Shown: in pieces, positions 4,855 to 33,649 of the stretch
Layout: every line of letters starts with the position of its first letter
Numbering within the stretch: position 1 is the first letter of the stretch
From: a virus
Direction: 5' to 3' (one strand)
IMG/VR virus record: IMGVR_UViG_3300033049_000041
Coordinates: 21,232 to 85,231 of that record
Length of the DNA stretch: 64,000 nt
Notes under the pieces: generated by a model
What the model saw: only the letters and a program-made list of their open reading frames with translations
Database searches by the model: none
Told to the model about the DNA's origin: nothing
Translations under genes and position numbers: made by a program

Positions 4855-4986
4855 AAGCAGGGAATAAATCTATAAAGAGTTGTGAGCTAATGCTCGGCAA
4901 GAGTTGAACTTGCGACCCTTTGAATTAAAATCAAATGTTCTACCAACTGAACTACGAAGTAACTCTTTAAATTAATATCCCTGCTT
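4855..4986 (-). ncRNA. Y-like module RNA 1 (tRNA D/AC/T arms inside the module, anticodon position UUA)
   Basis: Outer stem AAGCAGGGA/TCCCTGCTT, TATTAATT, inner stem TAAAGAGTT/AACTCTTTA, TTACTTCG, then D, anticodon and T arms. Confidence 0.8.
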
Positions 4987-10589: not shown

Positions 10590-10604
10590 GATTATTATTT
10601 TTAG

Positions 10605-10701
10605 TACCAAAAGAAGGACTCGAACCCCCAGTCACTTTACAATCAATTACTAGCACATTGAGTGTTTCATAAAGCCGCTTTGCCAATTAGCGTATTTCGG
10701 T
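10605..10701 (-). ncRNA. tRNA-like RNA with extended anticodon arm
   Basis: Acceptor ACCGAAA/TTTTGGT-A, D arm, T arm; GCTTTAT/GTAAAGT encloses about 28 extra nt. Confidence 0.65.
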
Positions 10702-11827: not shown

Positions 11828-11870
11828 GTTTTTTTACTTTTCCTTTTTACTAAATCTAATTCTAAAATTG

Positions 11871-12017
11871 GGTGGGTGATCGGACTCGAACCGACGACCT
11901 TTCATTTAACAGATGATAATGCGAAGTAACTTATGAAAATCAGTACTACCGTAGTAAACAAATGTATTCTAAGTATAAAAATGCATAAATGCTCTAACCA
12001 ACTGAGCTACACCCACC
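11871..12017 (-). ncRNA. tRNA (His-like body, GUU anticodon) carrying the Y-like module as an insertion
   Basis: GGTGGGTG/CACCCACC acceptor, D arm, insert containing GTACTGATT...GTTACTTCG, TCAT-CTGTTAA-ATGA arm, T arm. Confidence 0.8.
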
Positions 12018-12490: not shown

Positions 12491-12503
12491 TTGATGTATT
12501 TAG

Positions 12504-12649
12504 CGGAACTATCGGGATTTGAACCCGATAATCTCTGAGTAGACAACCCAGAAAAATTACGAAGTAACATAATTAATTAATATTCCGTTGAAAGGAAATG
12601 AAGGCAAACTATGACTATACGTAACGCTCAACCATTGAGCATTAGTTCC
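12504..12649 (-). ncRNA. tRNA-Asp(GUC)-like RNA carrying the Y-like module between D and anticodon arms
   Basis: GGAACTA/TAGTTCC-G acceptor; insert closed by TTACG/CGTAA contains ATATTAATT...GTTACTTCG; CTGGG-TTGTCTA-CTCAG arm. Confidence 0.8.
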
Positions 12650-13261: not shown

Positions 13262-13333
13262 CGTCCCAGGAGGGATTTGAACCCACGACCATTCGGTTAA
13301 CAGCCGAGCGCTCTACCACTGAGCTACTAAGAC
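13262..13333 (-). tRNA. tRNA-Asn(GUU)
   Basis: Cloverleaf; loop CTGTTAA. Confidence 0.92.
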
Positions 13334-13457
13334 GTAAATGAGAGTACCCTAACAATACTCCCGTTGGTGTACACCTTGATACTAAACCCTATGTCATCTG
13401 CTAATTAGGATAGCATAGTCTTCGTTTTGTATACCCAATTCCGAAGAATTTTTTATA

Positions 13458-14084
13458 CTATTCGGAAGACAATATGGCTTGCATCAGTTTCTTTTCGTTA
13501 TCACTAAAGTACTCAGGAAATTTCTTAAGTATCATACTATATGACTTCTTAAAATCTCCAGCAATAACTATACTTATTTTATTATACAACTTTAAAGTGA
13601 TGTAATGATATACATCCTCTTTCAATAAGTGTTTGTAGTTATGTTCCTTAATTCTAAATGTTCTTTCGAACTTTCTTCTCTTATTCTTACTCCATGCAGA
13701 AAGTAATTCATCTGCTAAATCTTTTCTTCCTCTGAAATAAAAGGTAAATAAGTTTAACATTTCATCTGTAATATTGTTTACTCTTAGGCTTACCATATTA
13801 TAATTTTCAAAGAAGTTAACAATTTTAGTTTTACCATGAAATCCAGCTAACATAATTAATTCAAATAATTCAGCTTGCTCTAGTATATCACTTTTTAATG
13901 CTTTTACTAAATCTATTACAAAACTCTTATCTGTATAATCATAGTATCCTAGATGAAATCGTTCTTCATCTTTTCTAAAGGTAACATATCCTGCAAACAT
14001 AAATCCAAAACCACCAATTCTATGATGAGGATAGTAAATAGTACCCCTTTTAATATAGGGATATAATATGGAGTCTGGTTGCAT
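13458..14084 (-). CDS. hypothetical protein
   Basis: 208-aa ORF. Confidence 0.7.
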   Translation of the reverse strand: MQPDSILYPYIKRGTIYYPHHRIGGFGFMFAGYVTFRKDEERFHLGYYDYTDKSFVIDLVKALKSDILEQAELFELIMLAGFHGKTKIVNFFENYNMVSLRVNNITDEMLNLFTFYFRGRKDLADELLSAWSKNKRRKFERTFRIKEHNYKHLLKEDVYHYITLKLYNKISIVIAGDFKKSYSMILKKFPEYFSDNEKKLMQAILSSE

Positions 14085-14142
14085 GATATGGATTTGAATT
14101 GTGTAATAAATTGAGTGGTCGGGGTAGCAAGATTCGAACTTG

Positions 14143-14529
14143 CTATAAAGAATTTATAAATTCAGCATGATAAGAAGTAACTTCATCTTCAATAAGATGT
14201 TTAAATCTACTATGCCAGTATTTATGATGAGTAGGACATAAGGGTATTAAATTTTCTATAGAATTATTAGTGTGATTTCCATCAAAATGATGTACTTCTA
14301 CAATATTAGATTCTTTACAAATTACACATGATTTTTCATGTTGTAGAAAACAAGTACTACGATAGCGAGATTCTTTCCAATTAGGATTATTCTTACCACT
14401 TCTAAAATATGTATTTGAACATGAATGTGAACAAGTAGTTTTCTCTCTTGGAGACCCTTGTTTAGTTTCAAATTCGTTATCGCATACAGGACAACTTTTA
14501 ATTATCCTGTTATATACCTTTCTACTCAC
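14143..14529 (-). CDS. HNH endonuclease
   Basis: CPVC, CSHSC, CVIC, VHHFDGNHTNNSIENLIPLCPTHH; GTG start inferred because the ORF-track start lies inside the tRNA. Confidence 0.88.
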   Translation of the reverse strand: MSRKVYNRIIKSCPVCDNEFETKQGSPREKTTCSHSCSNTYFRSGKNNPNWKESRYRSTCFLQHEKSCVICKESNIVEVHHFDGNHTNNSIENLIPLCPTHHKYWHSRFKHLIEDEVTSYHAEFINSL

Positions 14530-14543
14530 AACTTGTAATTGAG

Positions 14544-14618
14544 TATGGGTGTCCAGATTCGAACTGGAAATCTCTTGCTCCCAAAGCAAGTGCCTTAACC
14601 TGATTAGGCTACACCCAT
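14544..14618 (-). tRNA. tRNA-Pro(UGG)
   Basis: Cloverleaf; CTTGC-TTTGGGA-GCAAG. Confidence 0.92.
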
Positions 14619-14706
14619 ATATCCCTTATGTCTTATTCTTTCTTTTACTAACTCATTAACTGAGCTATACCCCGAAATGTCGAATTTAATCGACTATATT
14701 GTAAAT

Positions 14707-15258
14707 TTATGCTATACTTATATCTATCTCTAGATTATAAGCATCAACATGAAAGTGATACTTTTCTATGATGAATTGTAACATTGATTTGTATATTCTT
14801 TTATTATCCATTAAAATGTATGAATTATCATCAAAGTAAGCATACAGATTTTCTAATGTACTAATATAGAATGTCTTACATCCTATACTTAAAAGTTTCT
14901 CTTCTACACTAACAACCCAATCATTTCCTAATGTATACGGTGAACATAAAGCAGCACTGTGTATATGTGCATAAGCTTTATCTAGCCGTTTCTCAGTATG
15001 AATATTTCTTAGTGTTGCAGAATCACTAGGTCTCCAATTACTACCAAAACAAATAAGATATTCATACTTATAGCTAACTGAAGATACTACTGCAGTTTTA
15101 GATTGCTCTGTTCTTATAGCATAATCCAAATAGCATTTTCTATGGAACTCTTTAATCTCTGTAGTACTACCTTTATAATAGTAATAGAACTTCTTATGTG
15201 CTCTACTAATGTGTTTCTTAATCTCCTTCTTCCTCGCTCTCTCCTCCTCCTTTGTCAT
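14707..15258 (-). CDS. hypothetical protein
   Basis: 183-aa ORF. Confidence 0.7.
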   Translation of the reverse strand: MTKEEERARKKEIKKHISRAHKKFYYYYKGSTTEIKEFHRKCYLDYAIRTEQSKTAVVSSVSYKYEYLICFGSNWRPSDSATLRNIHTEKRLDKAYAHIHSAALCSPYTLGNDWVVSVEEKLLSIGCKTFYISTLENLYAYFDDNSYILMDNKRIYKSMLQFIIEKYHFHVDAYNLEIDISIA

Positions 15259-15260
15259 TC

Positions 15261-15404
15261 TTAATCTTTTTTATCACATACAGTACAGGTAAACTTTGGT
15301 GAACCTGTTTTTACATTAGTAGCCGTAGCGTATCTTTTTCCTTTACCGTAATTCTTATCTTGGAACTCATGTTCACAATCACACTTAATAATCTTTCCTG
15401 CCAT
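15261..15404 (-). CDS. small putative zinc-binding protein (47 aa, not in ORF track)
   Basis: Hand translation MAGKIIKCDCEHEFQDKNYGKGKRY...FTCTVCDKKD fills the gap between flanking genes. Confidence 0.7.
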   Translation of the reverse strand: MAGKIIKCDCEHEFQDKNYGKGKRYATATNVKTGSPKFTCTVCDKKD

Positions 15405-30523: not shown

Positions 30524-30626
30524 ATTTGTATCTTAAGTTAATAAGCTTTGTTTATACCCAACTTAATGGTTCCAGGAATAATTTAGACGGGTTTCCTGAT
30601 TTCTTTACCGTACTTATTAACCATTG

Positions 30627-31010
30627 TGGAGCTGCGGGGAGTCGAACCCCGGTGTTCCCACTTTCAATTAAAATTTCTACAAGTTTAGTAGTATCTTTAG
30701 ATAGTTCTTCTCGTTGGGTGATTCTACGTACCTTCCTGAGTATAGTTACTGATATACCATACAAGCCATAACTTCTTGTAATCCTTTTCCGAGTAATCGT
30801 GTTCGTGTATAACGGAGCAGTAATATCGGAGTCAACAGGCTCTACATTATTTGACGAGTAAGGTTAGTCGAAACTAATCTTAAGCCGCCATACGAACTGG
30901 TGCATAAGCTCCATCTAAGGTTTACCTTCAATATTTATTAATCGCTTATCAAGCCTCAGCGATACTTGCTTGTTCTAACATCTAAGTGGGAGTCGAATCC
31001 AGTCAGCCCC
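30627..31010 (-). ncRNA. ssrA: tmRNA
   Basis: 5' GGGGCTGACTGGATTCGAC, 3' T arm plus CAGCTCCA with G3:U; tag frame DGAYAPVRMAA-stop. Confidence 0.95.
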
Positions 31011-31816: not shown

Positions 31817-33649
31817 TTACCAAGAACCAAATGGCTCTAATTTAATTTCATTAACAGTATCATACAGCGCATTCGGATTAGCTTCCATTGCAATCAATTG
31901 CTTGAGTGTCTCGTAACTATATCCTGTTGAATGAATAATATTCGGATCATTATTATCAGGCATACAAGATGTACCATACGAATTAACGTTGATTAGGTAC
32001 ACATATACTCCTGATAAATTATTCTCTTCCATCCATCTCTTATACATTATGTATGCAGCACCAGCTACTCCATTCTGCATATCTGAGATAATGAATACAC
32101 GTTCTACTGGCTTAATTTGATGAGCATCTCTATAAGAACTTTTACATTGAAATATAGAACCCATATTAGTACCATGAGAAAAACGTGATAGTCTGGCAGT
32201 ACGTACAAACGTTTGTGCAATACTAGAAACACTATTAGAAGGGTCATAAGCAATTGCACCAGTTGCCGAAGCAAACTCATACAAATCAGCATTAACACCT
32301 TTTGCTAGTGTAGCGCCAATCAAAGCACCAATTTCTAATGGAGTCTTCTTATTGTAAGTATTTGCACAATGTCTTGGATTACGCATAGATGCAGATGAAT
32401 CAATTACAACAGCACTTCTACCAAAGAAACCTAAGTCTTCAAGGTTAGCACATGCAATATCATAAGCTTTATCTAAGTGTACTACGATTCGTCTACTAGC
32501 TGCATCACCAATCTGCATCATCATATCTCTAGCTTGTTCCACTTGATGCGGAAATACTAGATTACTAGGTGATTTGATTAATTTCTCATCAATTAATAAA
32601 GCACAGGCTTTCTCAAGCAATACTTTATCCATGGTACTTGATGCAGCATCATGTATGTTCTTCAGATTTCTAAGTAAAGCAAAATAACCAATCTTTCTAC
32701 TCTCAATCAGTGTACGGAAGTTTGCGGACTTACCTTTCACTAATTCTACTTGAGCTTGAGACTTCGTAATCTTACCTTCTTTCACCTTCTTAGCCACTGT
32801 TTGACCAAGCTTGGTGTTCTTATCTTCTACTGTATCCATTTGGCGTAACCATCCGTATATAGCAGCTTGAAAAGCATCTACTCGAACATAACCATCCTTA
32901 ACTCGAAGATTAGCTTTACGTATTTTCTCGTATATAGCATTCTCATTCTTCTTAGTAATGGCTTTACGCATATCAGTCTCATAGTCCTCAATCTTAATTG
33001 AAGCCCAGGCTCTTGATTTATTTGGTACAGGTCTCGTCAAGTTGATTAAATCAACCAAACTAACCATCTTACCTTTATTTTGATATTTTGCTAACTCATA
33101 CCAATCCGCTGATTCTAAGCCTTTTCTAAAGCCTTTAAGCATACTATTAGGTAAATTAATACCTTTGAATGCATCTAGCGTATTGATGTCTCTACCCTTA
33201 GCTTTAGCTCTCGTAATGTAGTAGTATGAAGCAATTTCCATCATGTCATCGACACGGAAAATAACTCCACCCATTTCTTTCTTACGATGTCTCTTACTAA
33301 AGAACAACCTTGCACATTGCTCACCACTTAACGATTTCATCAATCGTACTGCAGCAATATGAGTTCCTGTTCTATGTCCGTCTTTCGCACGAACGTAAAC
33401 AATGAGTTTTGCAGTGAATTCTGCTCCGTATACTTTAACACTCTCGTCGACAGCATCATTTAACATCCTGATTTCCTGAGATTCAGTTAGATAGTATGTT
33501 CTACCATCATACTTCTTAGTCGTCAGAATAGATAATAAATGCATGAAGGTCTTATAGGAATACCCTACACCACCTTGTCTAGTGTTCATCCTCTTGCTGG
33601 TATTAGCAGCTCTCTCCTTAACAATCCTCTTTTGATTGAACCTCGCCAT
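31817..33649 (-). CDS. Ro60/Rsr-like TROVE plus vWA RNA-binding protein
   Basis: NTRQGGVGY, YELAKY, SLVDLINLTRP, IGYFALLRNL, vWA MIDAS VIDSSASM, GTN, IISDMQ. Confidence 0.92.
   Translation of the reverse strand: MARFNQKRIVKERAANTSKRMNTRQGGVGYSYKTFMHLLSILTTKKYDGRTYYLTESQEIRMLNDAVDESVKVYGAEFTAKLIVYVRAKDGHRTGTHIAAVRLMKSLSGEQCARLFFSKRHRKKEMGGVIFRVDDMMEIASYYYITRAKAKGRDINTLDAFKGINLPNSMLKGFRKGLESADWYELAKYQNKGKMVSLVDLINLTRPVPNKSRAWASIKIEDYETDMRKAITKKNENAIYEKIRKANLRVKDGYVRVDAFQAAIYGWLRQMDTVEDKNTKLGQTVAKKVKEGKITKSQAQVELVKGKSANFRTLIESRKIGYFALLRNLKNIHDAASSTMDKVLLEKACALLIDEKLIKSPSNLVFPHQVEQARDMMMQIGDAASRRIVVHLDKAYDIACANLEDLGFFGRSAVVIDSSASMRNPRHCANTYNKKTPLEIGALIGATLAKGVNADLYEFASATGAIAYDPSNSVSSIAQTFVRTARLSRFSHGTNMGSIFQCKSSYRDAHQIKPVERVFIISDMQNGVAGAAYIMYKRWMEENNLSGVYVYLINVNSYGTSCMPDNNDPNIIHSTGYSYETLKQLIAMEANPNALYDTVNEIKLEPFGSW

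What the first reader, a model, noticed from the sequence alone, without database searches (positions are those of the whole stretch)
14116..14674. Nested tRNA-Pro: HNH gene and a complete tRNA-Pro sit in place of another tRNA-Pro's anticodon arm
Seen: the outer halves still form a perfect CGGGGTA/TACCCCG-ACCA acceptor with D-like and T arms about 500 nt apart. Between them lie a divergent intact tRNA-Pro(UGG) and an HNH ORF whose TAG stop touches the T arm. Established: free-standing homing endonucleases invade phage tRNA clusters. Inference: a cassette that destroys its target tRNA but brings an immune replacement, or a tRNA-capped mRNA whose processing controls nuclease expression. No group I intron core was seen.
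Basis: partly seen in the sequence, partly recalled or inferred. Interest (0 to 1): 0.7.

Follow-up and report, generated by a model that had tools for sequence, protein, structure and literature searches.

The report
Nuclease cassette splitting a phage tRNA-Pro
A selfish DNA-cutting-enzyme gene that travels with its own proline tRNA gene sits inside this marine phage's older proline tRNA gene and has replaced its middle, a cut-and-replace layout that recurs in unrelated phages.

Summary
On the minus strand, a 24-nt 5' piece (14674-14651) and a 28-nt 3' piece (14143-16) of a tRNA-Pro gene flank a 507-nt insert. The insert holds a 32-nt linker, an intact tRNA-Pro(UGG) (14618-14543), and a complete 128-aa short-form HNH gene (14529-14143). 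The 23 nt that would form the anticodon arm and variable loop are gone, and no intron family matches, so splicing cannot restore the outer tRNA.

The HNH family is tied to tRNA-Pro. In 49 of 64 distinct viral loci, the nearest tRNA is Pro. Four further loci have both outer halves around HNH plus an inner tRNA-Pro, and three more have a 5' remnant only. One of these (L111) has a sister contig (L120) that is 99.5-99.9% identical and keeps the tRNA whole. There the 645-bp cassette replaces 2 nt of the variable loop.

No sister of this window's phage was found, so insertion here is inferred by homology. Cleavage, and immunity of the inner tRNA, are untested.

The scan noted this layout before on other DNA (e1-5361669, e1-6104762, e1-5848026). 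I found no published description. It is a new variant of free-standing homing endonucleases in phage tRNA clusters such as T4 SegB.

The parts
14651..14674 (-). Outer tRNA-Pro, 5' remnant: acceptor strand CGGGGTA, U8 A9, and a degenerate D arm (GCTC-AGTTAAT-GAGT)
   Evidence: Read. The first 16-17 nt are identical to an intact tRNA-Pro(UGG) in L116-L118. In the fold it pairs with 14126-14120.
14619..14650 (-). 32-nt A-rich linker at the left end of the insert
   Evidence: No tRNA homology. No terminal repeat or target-site duplication at the insert ends.
14543..14618 (-). Inner, intact tRNA-Pro(UGG) with an A1-U72 first pair and a 5-nt variable loop. It is the only tRNA-Pro in the 85-kb record.
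   Evidence: ARAGORN. Rfam RF00005 at 68.4 bits. Only 3 of 62 unique tRNA-Pro sequences start with A.
14530..14542 (-). 13-nt spacer between the inner tRNA and the HNH start codon; no Shine-Dalgarno sequence seen
14143..14529 (-). Short-form HNH endonuclease gene: 128 aa, GTG start, TAG stop at 14145-14143. It has an N-terminal CxxC...CxxxC zinc ribbon and an HNH core.
   Evidence: Pfam HNH_2 at 23.2 bits against a cut-off of 21. PHROG 1271 HNH endonuclease, E 8e-13. 777 homologues. The N-terminus aligns with ~130-aa homologues that begin MARKxxY..CPxC. Catalytic and zinc residues are invariant in A1. It is the only copy in the record.
14116..14143 (-). Outer tRNA-Pro, 3' remnant: T arm GCAAG-TTCGAAT-CTTGC, acceptor strand TACCCCG, discriminator A, CCA
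   Evidence: Found as an orphan T arm with a matching upstream acceptor strand. nhmmer tRNA-Pro profile positions 49-76. 28-29 nt identical to the intact tRNA-Pro of L116-L118.

Best explanation
A mobile cassette made of a tRNA-Pro(UGG) gene plus a free-standing HNH homing-endonuclease gene has been copied into the phage's resident tRNA-Pro gene. The likely route is repair of a double-strand break that a nuclease of this family made between the anticodon arm and the T arm. In this window, 507 nt replaced 23 nt: the base after the D arm, the whole anticodon arm and the variable loop. The outer halves are therefore dead remnants, and the cassette's own tRNA-Pro now supplies the function.

Shown:
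- the anatomy of the locus
- an intact nuclease gene
- the family-wide link to tRNA-Pro
- recurrence of the nested layout
- a filled/empty pair for one family member

Inferred:
- that this copy arrived the same way
- that the enzyme cuts tRNA-Pro genes near the variable loop
- that the inner tRNA resists cutting
For: (1) The outer halves are the ends of a real tRNA-Pro(UGG), and the middle 23 nt are absent.

(2) The HNH gene is full length. Its motifs are conserved, and the AF2 model (pLDDT 80) finds only HNH nucleases as its best, weak, fold matches.

(3) Of 80 viral loci with a homologue, 64 have distinct HNH sequences. In 49 of those 64 the nearest same-strand tRNA, upstream or downstream, is Pro, whereas Pro makes up 69 of 474 tRNAs in these loci. 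Two or more tRNA-Pro lie near the HNH in 15 of 64 loci; the next most often duplicated isotypes reach 3 of 64.

(4) Both outer halves flank HNH plus an ARAGORN-called inner tRNA-Pro in L049/L050, L095, L105 and L111. 5' remnants alone occur in L052, L097 and L071. On the HNH tree these cases are scattered, needing at least 6 changes of the label.

(5) L111 and L120 are 99.86% identical over 2158 nt on one flank and 99.52% over 1884 nt on the other. L120 has the tRNA-Pro whole. L111 has 645 bp (leader, HNH, inner tRNA-Pro, 71 nt) in place of 2 nt of the variable loop.

(6) The 3' junctions cluster at the start of the T stem in the window, L049, L105 and L111.

(7) tRNA-Pro genes next to the HNH have enlarged variable loops: 6 nt or more in 25 of 53, against 5 of 35 control phage tRNA-Pro and 18 of 352 other class I tRNAs (Fisher p 0.0014 and 3e-14). 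This is what altered target sites would look like.

(8) In cultured phages of one species, Serratia phage BF carries the HNH and Erwinia phage pEa_SNUABM_19 lacks it. The flanks are about 99% identical, and the whole tRNA-Pro set differs between them.

(9) No terminal repeats or target-site duplication, as expected for break repair and not for transposition.
Against: - No relative of this phage was found, so there is no empty site for this copy. Both flanking ORFs have no relatives in the viral or metagenome collections, and only the probable source sample holds the DNA.
- The order here (inner tRNA, then HNH) is the reverse of all four other two-halved cases and is unique among the 65 loci examined, so a separate history is possible.
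- The inner tRNA here has a normal 5-nt variable loop, so the enlarged-loop argument does not apply to it.
- Its A1-U72 pair departs from the C1-G72 of 58 of 62 tRNA-Pro, so its charging is not assured.
- No empty site was found for L049 or L095.
- 15 of 64 loci have no ARAGORN tRNA-Pro as same-strand neighbour.
- The control set for loop length was picked by an acceptor pattern and is not a random sample.
- Nuclease activity and target are untested.
Confidence: 0.8

Rival explanations
1. Local rearrangement rather than invasion. The phage once had tandem tRNA-Pro genes next to a resident HNH gene. Nuclease-triggered recombination at microhomologies, as in SegB-driven segmental amplification, then left two fragments of one copy around the other copy and the HNH gene.
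For: - Two or more tRNA-Pro lie near the HNH in 15 of 64 loci.
- SegB-induced breaks give amplification through microhomology between a tRNA gene and segB (PMC13096335, discussion read).
- TATAGC occurs both at positions 6-11 of the outer 5' piece and at the HNH/T-arm junction.
- The window's gene order is unlike the other nested cases.
Against: - The outer and inner tRNAs are divergent (different acceptor, D, variable and T stems), so they are not recent duplicates.
- One insertion explains both junctions, whereas this route needs at least two events.
- The L111/L120 pair shows a clean insertion for the family.
Confidence: 0.1
2. An intron. The insert is removed from the RNA, either by self-splicing or by tRNA-end-processing enzymes plus a ligase, and the outer tRNA-Pro is restored.
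For: - The acceptor halves pair perfectly, and the fold brings them together.
- HNH genes do live in phage group I introns (recalled).
- Lak megaphage tRNAs have 'introns', one of which may itself encode a tRNA (PMC6784885, section 12 passages read).
Against: - The outer gene has no anticodon arm or variable loop on either side of the insert, so no splice could give a decoding tRNA.
- No intron family matched at E <= 10 in the window or at E <= 1 in L049 and L111.
- The non-coding parts of the insert (32 + 13 nt beside a tRNA) leave no room for a ribozyme core.
Confidence: 0.02
3. The outer halves are kept as a working RNA element. A two-piece acceptor/T-arm module would bracket the cassette transcript and steer RNase P, 3' trimming or CCA handling, and so nuclease expression. 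Alternatively, it serves as one more anticodon-less tRNA mimic in a phage that, by earlier notes, is rich in Ro60-linked tRNA look-alikes.
For: - 7/7 acceptor pairing, a perfect T arm and an encoded ACCA are retained. The 3' 28-29 nt show no change against a cellular tRNA-Pro.
- The stop codon shares a base with the T stem.
- In 14 of 80 loci the HNH ORF ends in the U8-A9-G10 TAG of the next tRNA.
- Control of segB by tRNA maturation at its stop codon has been proposed (PMC2330249).
- The window encodes a Ro60-like protein (phrog_850) and odd tRNA-like RNAs (earlier notes).
Against: - A recent insertion explains the intact ends equally well; L111 is such a case.
- The inner tRNA would be cut out of the same transcript and would sever the 5' half from the rest.
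- No YrlA or other family matched.
- There are no relatives in which to test conservation.
Confidence: 0.07

Closest known systems
T4/T6 SegB, a free-standing homing endonuclease in the tRNA gene cluster (PMC2330249: abstract and discussion passages read; PMC13096335: abstract and sections 10 and 12 read)
   Same: - A free-standing nuclease gene inside a phage tRNA cluster.
- It recognises a tRNA gene; SegB's 27-bp site holds 11 bp of the T-psi-C stem-loop.
- It carries neighbouring tRNA genes with it on homing.
- Its stop codon abuts a tRNA.
- It generates tRNA gene duplications.
   Different: - SegB is GIY-YIG, not HNH.
- SegB shows no isotype preference (section 10), whereas this family is tied to tRNA-Pro.
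- SegB sits between genes, whereas here the cassette lies inside the target gene, deletes its middle, and includes a replacement of the same isotype.
[quoted passage not shown] 2004; known to me only through its citation in PMC2330249; the paper itself was not read)
   Same: HNH-type site-specific nucleases encoded among phage tRNA genes.
   Different: I have no evidence that they split a tRNA gene or carry a same-isotype replacement. I did not test their sequence relationship to this family.
Lak megaphage tRNA 'introns', one of which may itself encode a tRNA (Devoto et al. 2019, PMC6784885; abstract and section 12 passages read)
   Same: A tRNA-like gene inside a phage tRNA gene, with presence/absence between related genomes.
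   Different: No nuclease gene is reported in the passages I read. Those inserts are described as introns in otherwise complete tRNAs, whereas here the host tRNA has lost its anticodon arm. Supplementary Table 6 of that paper was not visible to me.
HNH endonucleases encoded in phage group I introns (for example I-HmuI of SPO1; recalled, not looked up)
   Same: An HNH nuclease that spreads into a conserved gene at or near its own cut site.
   Different: There the ribozyme restores the host gene at the RNA level. Here no ribozyme is present, and function is restored by a second gene copy.
Synthetic 'cleave and rescue' gene drives (ClvR; recalled, not looked up)
   Same: The same logic: destroy the resident copy of a needed gene and supply a linked, cleavage-resistant copy.
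   Different: That system is engineered, Cas9-based and used in insects. For this natural element, resistance of the rescue copy is only inferred.

Membership tests
HNH (His-Me finger) endonuclease, Pfam HNH_2 PF13391 | Profile match above the curated cut-off | tested here: met
   23.2 bits against a cut-off of 21, E 6.4e-5. PHROG 1271 'HNH endonuclease', E 8.4e-13.
HNH (His-Me finger) endonuclease, Pfam HNH_2 PF13391 | Catalytic His...Asn...His and the CxxC / CxxH zinc ligands are present | tested here: met
   C68, C71, H80, H81, N88, N89, N93, C98, H101, H102 and H106 are invariant in 19 aligned short-form homologues, including the window's protein.
HNH (His-Me finger) endonuclease, Pfam HNH_2 PF13391 | Beta-beta-alpha-metal fold | tested here: inconclusive
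   AF2 model with mean pLDDT 80.3. The best Foldseek PDB matches are mostly HNH nucleases (Cap5, IscB, EcoKMcrA, ScoMcrA; Legionella DotN also appears), but at E 0.04-0.3, with none at E <= 0.001. The PDB sequence search found only IscB at E 0.13.
Free-standing homing endonuclease gene | Not embedded in a self-splicing intron or an intein | tested here: met
   No intron family matched at E <= 10. The ORF is separate and has its own start and stop.
Free-standing homing endonuclease gene | Presence/absence between otherwise near-identical genomes, at a conserved target | tested here: inconclusive
   Met for family members: L111 against L120 and Serratia phage BF against Erwinia phage pEa_SNUABM_19. 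It cannot be tested for the window, because no relative of this phage was found.
Free-standing homing endonuclease gene | Site-specific cleavage of the allele without the gene, and biased inheritance in crosses | not testable with these tools
   Needs enzyme assays and co-infections.
Group I intron in a tRNA gene | Ribozyme core (P3-P9) | tested here: not met
   No Rfam intron match in the window or in L049 and L111. Only 32 + 13 nt of the insert is neither tRNA nor ORF.
Group I intron in a tRNA gene | Exons that join into a complete tRNA | tested here: not met
   The 23 nt of anticodon arm and variable loop are absent on both sides of the insert (compared with the intact tRNA).
SegB (GIY-YIG) family | GIY-YIG nuclease domain | tested here: not met
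   Pfam and PHROGs give only HNH families.
Integrase-borne island at a tRNA gene | An integrase, and a direct repeat of the tRNA's 3' end at both borders | tested here: not met
   The insert holds only a tRNA and the HNH ORF. No direct repeats lie at its borders.
YrlA-type tRNA mimic (Rfam RF02553) | Match to the family model | tested here: not met
   Not among the 4 matches at E <= 10 in 13300-15400.

The most novel reading that the evidence does not exclude
The two outer halves are not debris. In the transcript they would pair into an anticodon-less acceptor/T-arm module with an encoded CCA end, bracketing the cassette. Host tRNA-end enzymes would then set the ends of the nuclease message, including removal or exposure of its stop codon. 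That would tie the selfish nuclease's expression to tRNA processing, in a phage that also carries its own tmRNA and many tRNA look-alikes.
Probability: 0.07. Interest if true: 0.8.

Novelty: new variant of a known kind. Interest (0 to 1): 0.6.

Why it matters
Homing endonucleases usually avoid harming their host gene in one of two ways: they hide in a self-splicing intron or intein, or they sit between genes. Here a third way appears. The element lands inside a useful gene, wrecks it, and brings a working copy of the same gene.

If the borne tRNA-Pro resists the nuclease, this would be a natural cut-and-rescue drive aimed at a tRNA gene. It would help explain three things:
- why phage tRNA clusters hold duplicated, fragmentary and odd-looking tRNA-Pro genes
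- why tRNA-Pro genes next to these nucleases have enlarged variable loops
- how tRNA alleles move between unrelated phages

Cultured HNH-plus and HNH-minus sister phages exist (Serratia phage BF and Erwinia phages pEa_SNUABM_12 and 49, against pEa_SNUABM_19, 44 and 50). The idea can therefore be tested directly.

Tried and rejected
**Searches for a sister phage (nothing found)**
- Peptide-pattern scans with the 208-aa and 183-aa flanking ORFs found no relatives in viral contigs.
- The same scan with the 208-aa ORF found none in metagenome contigs.
- An exact 26-nt search for the inner tRNA in viral contigs gave 0 hits.
- Sequencing runs: one DNA holder, the probable source sample, and no RNA holder listed. 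Read laying was not used, because contigs of the source sample cannot show a minority allele.

**Empty sites**
- None found for L049 or L095.

**A reading I withdrew**
- BLAST carried the BF/pEa_SNUABM_19 alignment 39 nt into the first tRNA-Pro. I first took this as a breakpoint at tRNA position 39. Reading the sequences showed that the two tRNAs differ throughout, and that the high-identity flank ends just before the tRNA. I dropped that claim.

**No signal above chance**
- Promoter-like sites: 12 found against 11.6 expected.
- A 16-nt, 88% inverted match between the linker and the HNH coding region (I1). By my own rough estimate, about one such match is expected in 700 nt of this composition.

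**Weak results**
- The PDB sequence search and the fold search were too weak to name a closest solved nuclease.

**Rejected explanations**
- Intron, integrase island and YrlA-like mimic are rejected, as set out in the membership tests.

**Literature**
- Five full-text searches found no paper describing an HNH-plus-tRNA cassette nested in a tRNA gene. This covers only the held library.
- I did not open any supplement. Supplementary files of PMC13096335 (Supplementary Fig. 7c and Data 3) and of PMC6784885 (Supplementary Table 6) may hold relevant cases.

- The search of protein representatives, the protein-atlas search, complex prediction, read laying and build_rna_model.

Full report
**What is there.** All genes in this part of the window run on the minus strand. 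Read 5' to 3' on that strand, the locus contains:
- An outer 5' piece at 14674-14651: CGGGGTA, TA, GCTC, AGTTAAT, GAGT.
- A 32-nt A-rich linker.
- A complete tRNA-Pro(UGG) at 14618-14543. ARAGORN calls it, and it scores 68.4 bits, E 2.8e-14, against Rfam tRNA.
- A 13-nt spacer.
- An ORF from GTG 14529 to TAG 14145-14143.
- An outer 3' piece at 14143-14116: GCAAG-TTCGAAT-CTTGC, TACCCCG, A, CCA. It shares the G of the stop codon.

The two acceptor strands pair 7 of 7. A fold of the whole 564 nt brings them together and forms the T arm. The supposed D arm folds as a 7-bp hairpin with a 5-nt loop and no GG, so it is not a normal D arm.

**The outer pieces are tRNA-Pro.**
- Thirty-two viral contigs hold an intact tRNA with the same first 15 nt and the same TACCCCGA end. 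By my reading, 31 of the 32 carry an NGG anticodon; L033 does not.
- Three metagenome contigs hold an intact tRNA-Pro(UGG) whose first 16-17 nt and last 28-29 nt are identical to the two pieces. Their flanks are unrelated to the window.
- The same 77-nt tRNA occurs in a Devosiaceae MAG. This is at most a faint hint about the host.
- Against that intact gene, the window's outer gene lacks 23 nt: the base after the D arm, the anticodon arm and the variable loop. In their place it has 507 nt.

**The nuclease.**
- The ORF matches Pfam HNH_2 above its cut-off and PHROG HNH families.
- The ORF listing starts it at a TTG inside the inner tRNA. The true start is GTG 14529. From there the protein (MSRKVYNRIIKSCPVC...) aligns end to end with a class of ~130-aa homologues that begin MARKxxYxxIEKxCPxC.
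- A second class of ~180 aa has an extra N-terminal domain.
- Zinc and catalytic residues are invariant in 19 aligned short forms.
- An AF2 model (pLDDT 80.3) finds mostly HNH nucleases as its best fold matches, all weak.
- The gene is single-copy in the 85-kb record.
- The gene therefore looks intact.

**Not an intron.**
- No intron family matches at E <= 10 in the window, or at E <= 1 in two related nested loci.
- Apart from the tRNA and the ORF, the insert has 45 nt. That is too little for a ribozyme core.
- Most importantly, no splice could rebuild a tRNA, because the anticodon arm is missing on both sides.

**The family is tied to tRNA-Pro.**
- The homologues in Xanthomonas phage XbC2 and Serratia phage BF lie just after one or two tRNA-Pro genes.
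- A profile scan of viral contigs found 134 relatives, of which 80 loci were kept. These hold 64 distinct HNH sequences.
- In 49 of the 64, the nearest same-strand tRNA is Pro: upstream only in 24, downstream only in 21, both in 4.
- Fifteen have none by ARAGORN. Of those, three have a Pro call on the other strand and four have degenerate Pro-like stretches.
- Pro makes up 69 of the 474 tRNAs in these loci.
- Two or more tRNA-Pro lie near the HNH in 15 of 64 loci. No other isotype is doubled in more than 3.
- In 14 of 80 loci the HNH ORF runs into the next tRNA and stops at its U8-A9-G10 TAG.

**The nested layout recurs.**
- I used a script for T arms not covered by any called tRNA, an nhmmer scan with a tRNA-Pro profile, and direct reading.
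- Both outer halves surround HNH plus an inner tRNA-Pro in L049/L050, L095, L105 and L111.
- A 5' remnant alone precedes HNH plus tRNA-Pro in L052, L097 and L071. The L071 remnant is weak by nhmmer.
- ARAGORN calls every inner tRNA.
- In those loci the order is: 5' part, HNH, inner tRNA, 3' part. The window has the inner tRNA first, and it is the only such case among the 65 loci.
- The 5' breakpoints vary: after the anticodon loop in four loci, later in two, and after the D arm in the window and L071.
- The 3' breakpoints sit at or just inside the start of the T stem.
- On an HNH tree the nested cases are scattered and need at least 6 changes of the label. The backbone is poorly resolved, and the window's branch is unplaced.

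**A filled site and an empty site.**
- L120 holds an intact tRNA-Pro whose two parts equal L111's outer halves.
- The flanks are 99.86% identical over 2158 nt and 99.52% over 1884 nt.
- L111 differs by 645 bp (leader, HNH, inner tRNA-Pro, 71 nt) in place of 2 nt of the variable loop.
- There is no target-site duplication and no terminal repeat.
- For this family member, nuclease gene and tRNA gene therefore entered together, inside a tRNA-Pro gene.
- No such pair was found for L049 or L095.
- No relative of the window's own phage was found at all. Insertion in the window is inferred from homology and anatomy.

**Further support.**
- tRNA-Pro genes next to the HNH often have enlarged variable loops. 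Loops of 6 nt or more occur in 25 of 53, against 5 of 35 control phage tRNA-Pro and 18 of 352 other class I tRNAs.
- Given the mapped insertion point in the variable loop, this is what nuclease-resistant alleles might look like.
- The window's inner tRNA has a normal 5-nt loop, however, and the control set was chosen by an acceptor pattern.
- In cultured phages of one species, BF has the HNH and pEa_SNUABM_19 does not. The flanks are about 99% identical, and the entire tRNA-Pro block differs.
- I first misread a BLAST extension as a breakpoint at tRNA position 39. I withdrew that reading after looking at the sequences.

**How it most likely works.**
- A nuclease of this family cuts tRNA-Pro genes of co-infecting or recipient phages between the anticodon arm and the T arm.
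- The break is resected to a varying extent on the 5' side. It is then repaired by copying the donor's block of nuclease gene plus tRNA-Pro gene.
- The recipient's gene is left in two dead pieces, and the imported tRNA-Pro takes over. In the window it is the only tRNA-Pro in the 85-kb record.
- Steps shown: the anatomy, the association with tRNA-Pro, the recurrence, and one filled/empty pair.
- Steps inferred: cleavage, its position, resistance of the imported tRNA, and that this copy arose the same way.

**What is known.**
- The closest described system is T4 SegB. It is a free-standing GIY-YIG nuclease in the tRNA cluster. Its site includes the T-psi-C stem-loop, and it carries neighbouring tRNA genes along on homing (PMC2330249, abstract). 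It also drives tRNA gene amplification through microhomology (PMC13096335, abstract and sections 10 and 12).
- The SegB authors proposed that tRNA maturation at the segB stop codon limits expression.
- Differences here: an HNH enzyme, a link to one isotype, a location inside the target gene, and a same-isotype replacement.
- Lak megaphages have a tRNA 'intron' that may itself encode a tRNA (PMC6784885).
- Five full-text searches found no description of this layout. Supplements were not opened.
- Earlier notes of this scan describe the same design on other DNA. I treat them as leads. My loci and tests were obtained independently before I read them.

**Verdict.** This is a new variant of a known kind, with interest 0.6.

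Noticed in passing
window 11870-12016(-), 12503-12649(-), 10604-10701(-): With its intron option, ARAGORN reads three more tRNA-like genes carrying 72-, 55- and 23-nt inserts: 'Asn(gtt)', a class-II-like 'Ile(tat)' and 'Ile(gat)'. Intact Asn(gtt) and Ile(gat) genes exist elsewhere in the cluster. Earlier notes read the first two as Ro60-linked tRNA mimics. I did not test that.
   Followed up: partly
window 30626-31010(-), 4890-4961(-), 31817-33649(-): The phage record encodes a tmRNA (tag GAYAPVRMAA), a tRNA with anticodon UUA (it would read UAA), and a 610-aa ORF matching PHROG 850 'RNA-binding protein' (Ro60-like, by the earlier notes).
   Followed up: no
L040, L041, L042, L044, L047, L053, L054, L058, L063, L097, L101, L103, L111, L115: In 14 of 80 loci the HNH ORF has no stop of its own. 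It runs into the next tRNA (Pro, Ile, Lys or Met) and ends at that tRNA's universal U8-A9-G10 = TAG. RNase P cleavage would therefore remove the stop codon from the message.
   Followed up: partly
53 unique tRNA-Pro genes next to HNH in L036-L115: Variable loops of 6-10 nt occur in 25 of the 53, against 5 of 35 control phage tRNA-Pro and 18 of 352 other class I tRNAs. These may be nuclease-resistant alleles.
   Followed up: partly
L105 2206-2237; L052 2457-2483; L097 1432-1455: Right after the 5' breakpoint, the insert begins with a stretch complementary to the anticodon loop (and, in L105, to the stem as well) of the broken tRNA. This gives a hairpin that buries the anticodon. It might be a fold-back repair scar or a regulatory or processing hairpin. 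It remains unexplained.
   Followed up: no
L111 2659-2735; L002 (Serratia phage BF), first tRNA-Pro; L020: Some tRNA-Pro genes linked to the HNH have ...GA... in place of GG in the D loop together with TTTGA in place of TTCGA in the T loop. This looks like a G19-C56 to A19-U56 covariation. It would change the DNA of the conserved T loop while keeping the tRNA elbow. I did not count how often it occurs.
   Followed up: no
L002 (KY630187) and L122 (MW879342): This is a cultured pair within one phage species. Serratia phage BF has Pro, a degenerate Pro, the HNH gene and one more ORF. Erwinia phage pEa_SNUABM_19 has three Pro genes and a Val gene, with no HNH. The flanks are about 99% identical. 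It is a ready experimental system.
   Followed up: yes
L055, L070, L075, L076, L084, L093, L101, L112: A branch of the HNH tree (support 94/94) holds most of the loci that have no same-strand tRNA-Pro neighbour. Some of these sit next to Thr(cgt) or Asn(gtt) instead, which may reflect a change of target.
   Followed up: no
L119 2707-2783 (Devosiaceae MAG): A cellular alphaproteobacterial tRNA-Pro(UGG) is identical, over the first 16-17 nt and the last 28-29 nt, to the window's outer tRNA-Pro remnants. This is only a weak hint about the host or the origin of the resident phage tRNA.
   Followed up: partly
window 14623-14638 and 14229-14244: The linker upstream of the inner tRNA is 14/16 complementary to the HNH coding stretch for the CPTHH motif (I1), and the MFE fold uses this pairing. 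By my rough estimate, about one such match is expected by chance in this region.
   Followed up: partly
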